Below, piece after piece: positions 21,926 through 23,413 of a stretch of DNA of 45,621 nt (the stretch's first letter is position 1; each line of letters begins with the position of its first letter). A program made the position numbers and the translations under genes. The stretch comes from an uncultured Chlamydiae bacterium. Its GTDB lineage: Bacteria > Chlamydiota > Chlamydiia > Chlamydiales > SM23-39. The stretch is from contig CAVSSM010000008.1 of NCBI GenBank assembly GCA_963730605.1, positions 1-45,621 on the forward strand, in the 5' to 3' direction. The notes beneath the pieces are model-generated. The model was not told where the DNA came from. It saw nothing but the letters and a program-made list of their open reading frames with translations, and made no database searches.

Positions 21926-22376
21926 AGAAGATTTTTCCGATGAACCGCTCGTCAATCTCACTCCGCTGATCGACGTCGTTTTCGTCGTCTTAATCAGCTT
22001 CATATTGATCGCCCCCATTTTAGATATCGATTCGGTTGCTTTAGCCCCAAGCGGCCCCTCAAGCAAAAAAGAATCCCCGGCGGTCCAAAACAGCTCGCTT
22101 TCGATTTCGATCCGGTTGGACAACTCGATCTGGTTCCAAGGCCAGCGGATGAATCTTGAAACTCTCGAAAAGCATCTTTTGCTCGAAAAAAAGCGGCGGC
22201 CGACTGAAGTGCCTCAGGTGATCCCTGACGCCCGCTCTCATTTCGAAACTTATGCCCAAGTAAAAAATGTTTTAGAGGCTTGCGGCTTCGAGCAAATGGA
22301 CATTGTTCTTAGACCGCCGTCAACCACCCCTGCCTCAATGCAGAGGCTTGAAAGGAGACTAACAAGCCCTAGTTGA
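21897..22376 (+). CDS. tolR: TolR/ExbD; the last 18 residues are read through into the inserted element (reconstructed native end ...DIVLRPP*)
   Basis: NLTPLIDVVFVVLISFILIAP TM motif; the tail STTPASMQRLERRLTSPS is encoded by the omega-RNA 5' end. Confidence 0.9.
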   Translation: MRRRRLQLLEEDFSDEPLVNLTPLIDVVFVVLISFILIAPILDIDSVALAPSGPSSKKESPAVQNSSLSISIRLDNSIWFQGQRMNLETLEKHLLLEKKRRPTEVPQVIPDARSHFETYAQVKNVLEACGFEQMDIVLRPPSTTPASMQRLERRLTSPS

Positions 22377-22585
22377 CCAGACTAAGCTATCCAAAAGATA
22401 GCTACGTTGTATAGAGGCCAAAGACCCACGGCAGAATGCTTCCTCAGTTCTGCCCTCTGGAAACTCTGGTTGCAGACAAGCGATAGGGTAAGCACGAAAC
22501 GGACTGGAGTACGTGCCGCTATATAACATTGTCGAGGGGAGCGAATCGAAAGATTCCGTTACAAGGCCCGTAAGGGCATTTTTTA
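22319..22585 (+). ncRNA. omega-RNA / HEARO-type scaffold (3' end approximate)
   Basis: GTCAAC (22319-24) pairs with GTTGAC (22372-77); GGCTTG/CAAGCC stem; GTTGACCAGACTAAG...CTACGTT; GGCAGAA-TGCTTCCTCAG-TTCTGCC hairpin whose loop is complementary to GAGGGG in AACATTGTCGAGGGGA; terminal GCCC-GTAA-GGGC hairpin; directly upstream of a PLMP ORF. Confidence 0.85.
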
Positions 22586-22593
22586 GAAAGATT

Positions 22594-22668
22594 ATGGCCG
22601 TATTTGTAGTAGACAAACATCAAAAACCCCTGATGCCCTGCTCTGAAAAGAGAGCGCGGCTTCTTTAG
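22594..22668 (+). pseudogene. iscB: iscB N-terminal stub (PLMP/RRXRR region), 24 aa
   Basis: Translates to MAVFVVDKHQKPLMPCSEKRARLL*, the characteristic IscB/IsrB N-terminus; no RuvC or HNH sequence remains. Confidence 0.88.
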
Positions 22669-22684
22669 TTTCCGAGAGGATCCG

Positions 22685-23413
22685 ATGAAATGGATTTGGA
22701 TCTGGTTTCAGAGCCTTTCCCGTTTCAGGCAAATCGGGGTTGTCTCTCTCGGCTTCCACGCCGTTCTCATCCTGATGCTCCTCATCAACCATATGGCAAC
22801 GTATCGTCCTCCCGTAAGACGGCCCATTCAAGTCCGCATGAAGGCAGCCCCCACCTCCAGCCCGGCTGTAGCCGCAAACAACAAACAAGCCGCTCCTGCC
22901 AAAGCAAAAGAGACCAAGGCAAAAGAGATAAAGCAAGCCATAGCGCCAAAAACAACCCCCCAAAAGATGCCCAAAGCAGGCAGGGAAAGCCATCAAGCAG
23001 CCTCTGTCGATCAAAATCTTTTGCAGCAAATCGTGGATAGCTTAGATGCCATTGGCGCACCGGAAAAAAAGGCTGTGAAGCCATCCCATTTTGCGCCTCG
23101 CTTGCCCCCCTCCATTGAAATACAGTCAGGCGGGCAGGCAACCGAGACACGACCTGGATATGGGGAAACCGTATCGGCGATCTTGCAAAGCAACCTGGAT
23201 CTTCCGGAATTCGGGCAAGTGGTGGTAAAGATCGAGATCAATGCGATTGGCTCAGTGACCCAATGCGAAATCTTGCAGGCGAAGAGCCGGAAAAACGGCG
23301 AATTCCTGAAAAAGCGGTTGCGAGAGCTCGTCTTCCCATGCTTTAATGAATTTGGAATCTTAGAAAACCATTTAAATTTTACCATTACTTTTCACAATGC
23401 GGAAAATCGTTAG
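22685..23413 (+). CDS. tolA: TolA/TonB-like energy transducer
   Basis: Single TM with S-x3-H (VSLGFHAV), Ala/Lys/Pro-rich linker, TonB-C-like domain; lies between tolR and tolB. Confidence 0.75.
   Translation: MKWIWIWFQSLSRFRQIGVVSLGFHAVLILMLLINHMATYRPPVRRPIQVRMKAAPTSSPAVAANNKQAAPAKAKETKAKEIKQAIAPKTTPQKMPKAGRESHQAASVDQNLLQQIVDSLDAIGAPEKKAVKPSHFAPRLPPSIEIQSGGQATETRPGYGETVSAILQSNLDLPEFGQVVVKIEINAIGSVTQCEILQAKSRKNGEFLKKRLRELVFPCFNEFGILENHLNFTITFHNAENR

What the first reader, a model, noticed from the sequence alone, without database searches (positions are those of the whole stretch)
22298..22688. Orphan omega-RNA with a 24-aa IscB stub in the tol-pal operon, whose guide would target the element-free allele
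Seen in sequence: a structured ~270-nt RNA starting GTCAACCACCCC with intact-looking stems, then MAVFVVDKHQKPLMPCSEKRARLL*, then only 16 nt before tolA. Established: this is the HEARO/omega-RNA plus PLMP architecture of IscB (OMEGA) elements. Their guide is taken from the 5' flank and their TAM lies 3' of the target; ATGA is the TAM reported for Allochromatium warmingii IscB. Inference: the guide is the tolR 3' end (...GGACATTGTTCTTAGACCGCC), and guide plus ATGA occur together only in the empty allele. Read-through from tolQR could produce a guide RNA for an IscB encoded elsewhere, or the RNA may have been retained as a cis-element after nuclease loss. None of this appears in the ORF track.
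Basis: partly seen in the sequence, partly recalled or inferred. Interest (0 to 1): 0.85.

Follow-up and report, generated by a model that had tools for sequence, protein, structure and literature searches.

The report
Broken IscB transposon inside tol-pal operon
A small jumping gene of the Cas9-ancestor (IscB) kind landed between two envelope genes of an environmental chlamydia and then lost its nuclease and one of its ends, leaving an intact-looking guide-RNA gene that is most likely a stranded leftover of a common, already described type.

Summary
Window 22319-22684 is a 366-bp IscB (IS200/IS605) element: a full HEARO/omega-RNA match (109.8 bits, cut-off 83), a 24-aa IscB stub, and an end remnant abutting tolA's ATGAA. 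A same-genus genome holds the exact empty site with no duplication, so the guide/target geometry is as stated. That geometry is textbook for every IscB element, and protein-less omega-RNA copies are described and common in this lineage (24 of 34 classifiable loci lack a full iscB). This copy arose by a roughly 1.3-kb deletion from a full-length parent (98% identical relative). The deletion also removed the transposase hairpin of the TAM-side end, so the element probably cannot excise and its target does not arise in this genome. No iscB, second omega-RNA or whole tnpA was found in the 83%-complete assembly. It is absent from the same junction in 29 of 29 relatives. Expression is untested. Verdict: a recent, immobilised transposon relic; low interest.

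The parts
21897..22376 (+). tolR/exbD-family gene; its last codons now run into the element, giving 159 aa with an 18-aa element-encoded tail instead of stopping at the TGA of ATGA
   Evidence: Pfam ExbD 66.9 bits; C-termini of 29 relatives, G003 ends right after the shared last residues; translation
22303..22318 (+). Predicted guide segment (host tolR 3' end, outside the element); length assumed, about 16 nt
   Evidence: Position 5' of the scaffold as in Meers et al. passages; same bases precede ATGAA in G003; inference
22319..22684 (+). Internally deleted IscB/IS200-IS605 element, 366 bp, inserted at N|ATGAA with no target duplication
   Evidence: Empty-site comparison
22319..22547 (+). HEARO/omega-RNA scaffold (Rfam match); further hairpins to about 22580
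   Evidence: 2 of 73 consensus pairs broken against 0-4 in 11 relatives
22330..22345 (+). Subterminal hairpin of the RNA-side end; closing pair mismatched and loop changed, which also removes the in-frame stop that ends upstream genes in relatives
   Evidence: Alignments; upstream-frame read-outs; role inferred
22594..22668 (+). 24-aa IscB N-terminal (PLMP) stub; stop codon spans the deletion junction
   Evidence: run X4 contig diverges after 22666 and continues in frame like full-length L090
22667..22684 (+). Last 18 nt of the TAM-side transposon end, without its subterminal hairpin; holds an SD-like stretch just before tolA's ATG
   Evidence: Comparison with ends of relatives; no match to the end profile; predicted pairing -9.2 against -1.0 kcal/mol for the empty allele
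22685..22689 (+). Target/TAM ATGAA: start codon of tolA and, in the empty allele, overlapping stop of tolR
   Evidence: N|ATGA target; TTCAT TAM, its reverse complement
22685..23413 (+). tolA/TonB-like gene, 242 aa, intact
   Evidence: 77% identical over 222 aa to the G003 orthologue

Best explanation
A stranded transposon relic. Step 1 (shown): a non-autonomous IscB element, about 1.63 kb in relatives, inserted at the ATGA stop/start overlap of tolR and tolA without duplicating the target. Step 2 (strongly inferred): one deletion of about 1.3 kb then removed iscB from codon 25 onward together with the subterminal hairpin of the TAM-side end, fusing the stub to the last 18 nt and creating a stop. 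Step 3 (inferred): without that hairpin TnpA cannot peel the element out, so it is locked in place and the donor joint that its guide matches is not generated; with no IscB found, any omega-RNA made by read-through from tolQR has no partner. The RNA looks intact because the event is recent. The operon tolerates it: tolR gains 18 C-terminal residues, tolA stays whole and may be translated from the SD-like stretch in the remnant or by reinitiation after the stub.
For: Exact empty site in G003; no element at this junction in 29 of 29 relatives. Full-length relatives at 77-90% identity with 457-460-aa frames and hairpin-bearing ends. A contig with 5 differences in 303 nt continues in frame exactly where this copy breaks. 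End profile finds 20 of 24 non-full-length loci but not this one (profile built from 19 of the 43 loci, so partly circular). Own genome: 1 HEARO match; IscB searches hit only the stub and two unrelated HNH genes; Y1 transposase only as a C-terminal fragment beside a frameshifted tnpB. Family: 103 HEARO matches in 21 of 103 genomes against 33 RRXRR matches in 17 of 103; four other HEARO-positive genomes have no RRXRR match. Excision needs both end stem-loops (Meers preprint passage).
Against: The assembly is 83% complete in 12 contigs and repeats are often unassembled, so an iscB or tnpA may be missing. The scaffold scores within the range of copies beside intact iscB (106-129 bits) and breaks only 2 of 73 pairs, so it could be loadable. 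It lies in sense inside an operon, where read-through is expected. No RNA data for this locus. Loss of excision is inferred from the missing hairpin, not assayed.
Confidence: 0.82

Rival explanations
1. Trans-acting guide. Read-through from tolQR yields an omega-RNA that loads an IscB encoded in the unassembled part of the genome or on an incoming element, and cuts the element-free tolR-tolA allele, for example one acquired by recombination from a neighbour.
For: Scaffold intact; sense orientation inside an operon as required for biogenesis; exact target exists in a congener; IscB genes occur in 16 of 102 other family genomes; trans use of stand-alone omega-RNAs is proposed in print.
Against: No iscB in 2.22 Mb by Pfam, by a relative's protein and by a six-protein profile on all six frames. 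The element probably cannot excise, so there is no self-generated target. No other target in the genome or in viral contigs (0 exact matches). No empty-allele joint in 4 of 20 runs laid, at low depth.
Confidence: 0.07
2. Exapted cis-element. After insertion broke tolR-tolA translational coupling, the deletion was selected because it brought a stub stop and an SD-like stretch next to tolA's start; the RNA now tunes tolA-tolB-pal expression.
For: The empty allele has an ATGA overlap and no predicted SD (-1.0 kcal/mol); the remnant pairs at -9.2, reached by 3.5% of 1,179 background ATGA sites. The part kept is the part next to the ATG.
Against: One lineage only (1 of 30 loci). The deletion is out of frame with the end's own TGA, so coupling was not restored (frames). 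The SD-like stretch sits only 3-5 nt from the ATG. An SD in the last 20 nt is not a family trait in my test (median -1.8 kcal/mol, 3 of 21 at or below -5). Any benefit would come from 18 nt, not from the 260-nt RNA.
Confidence: 0.09
3. The stub is an assembly artefact (collapsed full-length element).
For: Metagenome assembly; IS copies are often mis-joined.
Against: Separately assembled run contigs bridge the left junction (22185-22455) and the deletion plus right junction (22521-22764) with 0 differences; these runs may be the source sample, so they check the assembly, not the spread. A second stub-type deletion occurs in single-contig genome G142 (L087).
Confidence: 0.02

Closest known systems
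ISC/IscB elements of the IS200/IS605 superfamily with N|ATGA targets, e.g. ISC1-1_MA, ISC2-1_HM, ISC2-1_MS (Kapitonov, Makarova, Koonin 2016, PMC4810608; passages seen)
   Same: 5'-GTCA terminus and CG-3' terminus, insertion just upstream of ATGA, no target duplication, IscB N-terminus
   Different: Only 24 codons of iscB remain and the TAM-side hairpin is gone
ISGst5 IscB element and omega-RNA-bearing PATEs of Geobacillus stearothermophilus (Meers et al., bioRxiv 10.1101/2023.03.14.532601; passages seen)
   Same: Scaffold at one end, guide from the 5' host flank by read-through, TAM TTCAT (ATGAA on this strand), guide matches the donor joint, protein-less copies needing nucleases in trans
   Different: PATEs keep both ends and can be mobilised; this copy keeps one degenerate hairpin and a coding stub, and no partner nuclease or transposase was found
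HEARO RNA, Rfam RF02033 (IscB omega-RNA)
   Same: Full-length match above the gathering score
   Different: No downstream nuclease ORF beyond the stub
Stand-alone omega-RNAs (Altae-Tran et al. 2021, seen only as summarised in PMC11610941, passages; the original was not read)
   Same: omega-RNA locus without an intact nuclease gene
   Different: No co-resident OMEGA nuclease found here

Membership tests
HEARO / IscB omega-RNA | Covariance-model match above the gathering score over the whole model | tested here: met
   109.8 bits against 83, positions 1-211 of 211
HEARO / IscB omega-RNA | Consensus stems intact | tested here: met
   2 of 73 pairs broken; 0-4 in 11 relatives; 35 of 73 pairs show a two-sided change in the set
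HEARO / IscB omega-RNA | Expressed and processed with a 5' guide | not testable with these tools
   The one RNA run laid (X15) gave only short contigs inside the scaffold, the longer ones with differences, none on the flanks
IscB (ISC) IS200/IS605 element | Inserted at N|ATGA without target duplication | tested here: met
   G003 empty site
IscB (ISC) IS200/IS605 element | Intact iscB with RuvC and HNH domains | tested here: not met
   24 aa only; 27.9 bits against cut-off 175
IscB (ISC) IS200/IS605 element | Subterminal hairpins at both ends | tested here: not met
   TAM-side hairpin absent; RNA-side hairpin has a mismatch and changed loop
PATE / protein-less mobile omega-RNA element | No protein, both ends kept, mobilisable in trans | tested here: not met
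   One end truncated; single copy in the assembly; no identical stub elsewhere among 11 metagenome and 6 genome loci with the shared 31-nt motif
Functional trans-acting OMEGA guide | Cognate IscB in the same cell | tested here: inconclusive
   None found, but the assembly is 83% complete
Functional trans-acting OMEGA guide | Directs cleavage of guide plus TAM | not testable with these tools
   Needs an in vitro or plasmid-interference assay

The most novel reading that the evidence does not exclude
A locked guide: because the element can no longer excise, its only possible target is a foreign, element-free tolR-tolA allele. With an IscB supplied in trans it would act as an allele-exclusion or homing device inside an envelope operon, an intermediate between a selfish OMEGA element and a host-fixed guide locus.
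Probability: 0.06. Interest if true: 0.55.

Novelty: new member of a known kind. Interest (0 to 1): 0.17.

Why it matters
Little as it stands. It is a clean, dated example of how IscB elements decay (exact empty site, near-identical parent, mapped deletion), and it shows that IscB elements and protein-less omega-RNA copies are common in environmental chlamydiae; my search for 'IscB' with 'chlamydia' listed 15 papers, none on this by title or abstract start. If the locked-guide reading were true, it would show a transposon guide turned into a fixed allele-discriminating locus, a step towards domestication.

Tried and rejected
Cognate nuclease in the own genome: RRXRR family, a relative's IscB and a six-protein profile found only the stub and two HNH-only genes of 167 and 201 aa in unrelated contexts. 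Transposase: the single Y1 match over cut-off covers profile 68-120 only. Other guide targets: 0 of 21,204 ATGA sites match a 16-nt guide within 3 mismatches, 1 matches 14 nt with 3 mismatches; 0 exact matches in viral contigs. Conservation at this site: 0 of 29 relatives' loci (30 of 40 matching genomes were returned as loci, one being the own genome). Idea that the deletion restored translational coupling: rejected, three different frames. Idea that the family's ends carry an SD in the last 20 nt: not seen; the test ignores sites further upstream or overlapping the ATG. Internal sigma-70 promoter: 0 found in 20900-23000, 1.1 expected; the terminator-like hit at 22639-22656 lies in coding stub sequence, with 5 such sites found against 2.8 +/- 2.1 expected, so it is not taken as evidence. 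Expression: 20 runs listed, 5 on record as RNA with small shares; 4 laid, the RNA run uninformative. Reading PMC13565253, PMC9755519, PMC10734277 and PMC8730458 by term search added nothing on stand-alone omega-RNAs or the ATGA TAM. Supplements were not opened; those of the Meers preprint are closed and may list further PATE and stub elements.

Full report
1. Observation. The window region is the tolQ-tolR-tolA-tolB-pal operon of an environmental chlamydia: Pfam gives MotA/TolQ, ExbD/TolR, a sub-threshold TonB_C, PD40 repeats and OmpA in that order, and tolB passes its NCBIfam cut-off. The closest named relatives of the element are in genomes titled Rhabdochlamydiaceae. Between tolR and tolA, Rfam finds a full HEARO match at 22319-22547 (109.8 bits, cut-off 83). 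A 24-codon frame at 22594-22668 matches the first 22 positions of RRXRR and of guided_IscB. Sixteen bases separate its stop from tolA's ATG at 22685.

2. Boundaries. I searched 41 genomes with TolR; 40 matched and 30 loci were returned, one being the own genome. None of the 29 others has an insert at the tolR/tolA junction. Same-genus G003 has the identical 32-nt tolR end joined straight to ATGAA, where the TGA ends tolR and the ATG starts tolA; BLAST pieces abut exactly. The insert is therefore 22319-22684, 366 bp, with no target duplication. This is the N|ATGA rule with 5'-GTCA and CG-3' termini in Kapitonov et al. (PMC4810608, passages), and the reverse complement of the TTCAT TAM of GstIscB (Meers preprint, passages).

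3. Origin of the stub. In a sample of the phylum, 15 of 400 scored genomes match the element. The best relatives carry 457-460-aa IscB frames in elements of about 1.63 kb that end in a hairpin, a short tail and ATGA. Run X4 has a contig with 5 differences over 22364-22666 whose loose end continues as in full-length L090. So the break is at 22666/22667, the stop codon is probably made by the junction, and the last 18 nt are the tail of the far end. The hairpin that precedes this tail in relatives is missing: a profile of that end, built from 19 of my 43 loci, does not match this copy. Run contigs bridge both junctions with 0 differences (X1 22185-22455, X2 22521-22764); they may be the source sample, so they argue against mis-assembly only.

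4. State of the RNA. It breaks 2 of 73 consensus pairs, against 0-4 in 11 relatives, and scores within the 106-129-bit range of copies beside intact iscB. One broken pair closes the RNA-side end hairpin, whose loop is also changed. In five relatives an upstream gene that runs into the element stops within six codons at that loop (L073, L075, L076, L080, L082); here the stop is lost and TolR gains 18 residues. Near-identity to a full-length parent explains the intact stems without invoking selection.

5. Partners. The assembly (2.22 Mb, 12 contigs, 83% complete) has one HEARO match. IscB searches by family, by a relative's protein and by a six-protein profile over all six frames return the stub and two HNH-only genes. 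The only Y1 match over cut-off is a C-terminal fragment beside a frameshifted tnpB. The predicted guide has no second target: 0 of 21,204 ATGA sites within 3 mismatches of 16 nt and 0 exact matches in viral contigs. Against my reading: 17% of the genome is unseen, and no expression data exist for this locus.

6. How ordinary. In the family, 21 of 103 genomes hold 103 HEARO matches (64 over cut-off), against 33 RRXRR matches in 17 of 103; G412, G323, G226 and G015 have HEARO but no RRXRR match. I classified 43 fetched loci, mostly the best-scoring of 105 matches and so not a random sample. Nine were cut by contig ends and set aside; 10 have a full iscB; 24 do not, of which 20 keep the far end, 4 lack it (this one included) and 3 carry a coding stub (this one, L087, L111; the last judged by eye). 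Single-contig G142 has 11 HEARO matches and 2 full iscB. Of 29 end matches the script read 21 as followed by ATGA; 10 of these open 100 codons or more and 9 run to the locus edge, against 125 of 537 background ATGA sites opening 100 codons. In 18 of 43 loci a gene runs into the element, 10 in the phase of an ATGA stop/start overlap. Landing on a start codon inside an operon is thus the family habit. Meers et al. already state that IscB omega-RNAs depend on transcription from the flank, that guides match the donor joint, and that PATEs often encode omega-RNAs needing nucleases in trans; stand-alone omega-RNAs are summarised in PMC11610941. Earlier scan notes describe the same pattern in other genomes; they are unchecked leads, not support.

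7. Mechanism. Shown: insertion site, boundaries, stub, missing far hairpin. Inferred: a single deletion, loss of excision (both stem-loops are needed), tolerance by the operon. The remnant holds an SD-like stretch (-9.2 against -1.0 kcal/mol for the empty allele) that may help tolA, but the deletion did not restore frame coupling, and such an SD in the last 20 nt is not general in the family (3 of 21). Most likely the element is a stranded relic (0.82). Rivals: exapted cis-element (0.09), trans-acting guide (0.07), artefact (0.02).

8. Verdict. It works, or worked, like an ISC/ISGst5-type OMEGA element; it is a member of the HEARO RNA family; it fails membership as an intact IscB element and as a mobile PATE. 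New member of a known kind; interest 0.17. Papers were seen as search listings and term-search passages; none was read whole, no supplements were opened, and Altae-Tran et al. 2021 was not read. The A. warmingii TAM is recalled only. A second, non-HEARO element with the same ends, found in passing, looks more worth a follow-up than this locus.

Noticed in passing
G000:C1:427949-428294 (+), locus L142:1501-1846; relatives L143, L144, L148-L154: A second, roughly 340-bp protein-less element with IscB-type ends and ATGA target, whose roughly 270-nt body has no Rfam match even at E 1 but folds well (z -3.15). Copies sit at different genes in G001 (97%) and G007 (89%) and in seven more genomes of the order; none of the 10 copies read carries an ORF inside; 7 of 44 predicted pairs show two-sided changes in 9 aligned copies. 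Possibly a different omega-RNA class (IsrB-type is a recalled guess); no partner gene found, no plasmid match. Here an IS630-like gene sits right against its 5' end.
   Followed up: partly
G000:C11:64562-64594 (-), locus L066: Isolated 33-nt fragment 91% identical to the element's RNA-side end, just after the stop of an NRPS-like fragment.
   Followed up: partly
G000:C2:395536-396870 and C1:105779-106230: Two dead IS605 relics: a truncated tnpA, in frame with a downstream gene that looks like a sugar isomerase (by eye), beside a frameshifted tnpB; and a smaller remnant.
   Followed up: partly
L097:2140-2160: A relative's iscB is interrupted by foreign sequence within a few bases of where this copy's deletion starts (codon 24-25), with no further iscB in the fetched stretch. 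Could hint at a fragile spot; two cases only.
   Followed up: partly
L073, L076, L077, L090, L115, L117, L123 ends: In these full-length elements the iscB frame ends at the TGA of the ATGA target, recreating a stop/start overlap with the downstream host gene; L075 and L080 stop about 33 nt earlier.
   Followed up: partly
window 29771-29839 (-) and 29864-31192 (-): Group II intron 3' domains (46.2 bits) next to a 442-aa frame with a reverse-transcriptase-like YADD motif.
   Followed up: no
window 19239-20348 (+): 369-aa frame with two hydrophobic stretches and an HCxxGxxRS phosphatase-like motif, by eye.
   Followed up: no
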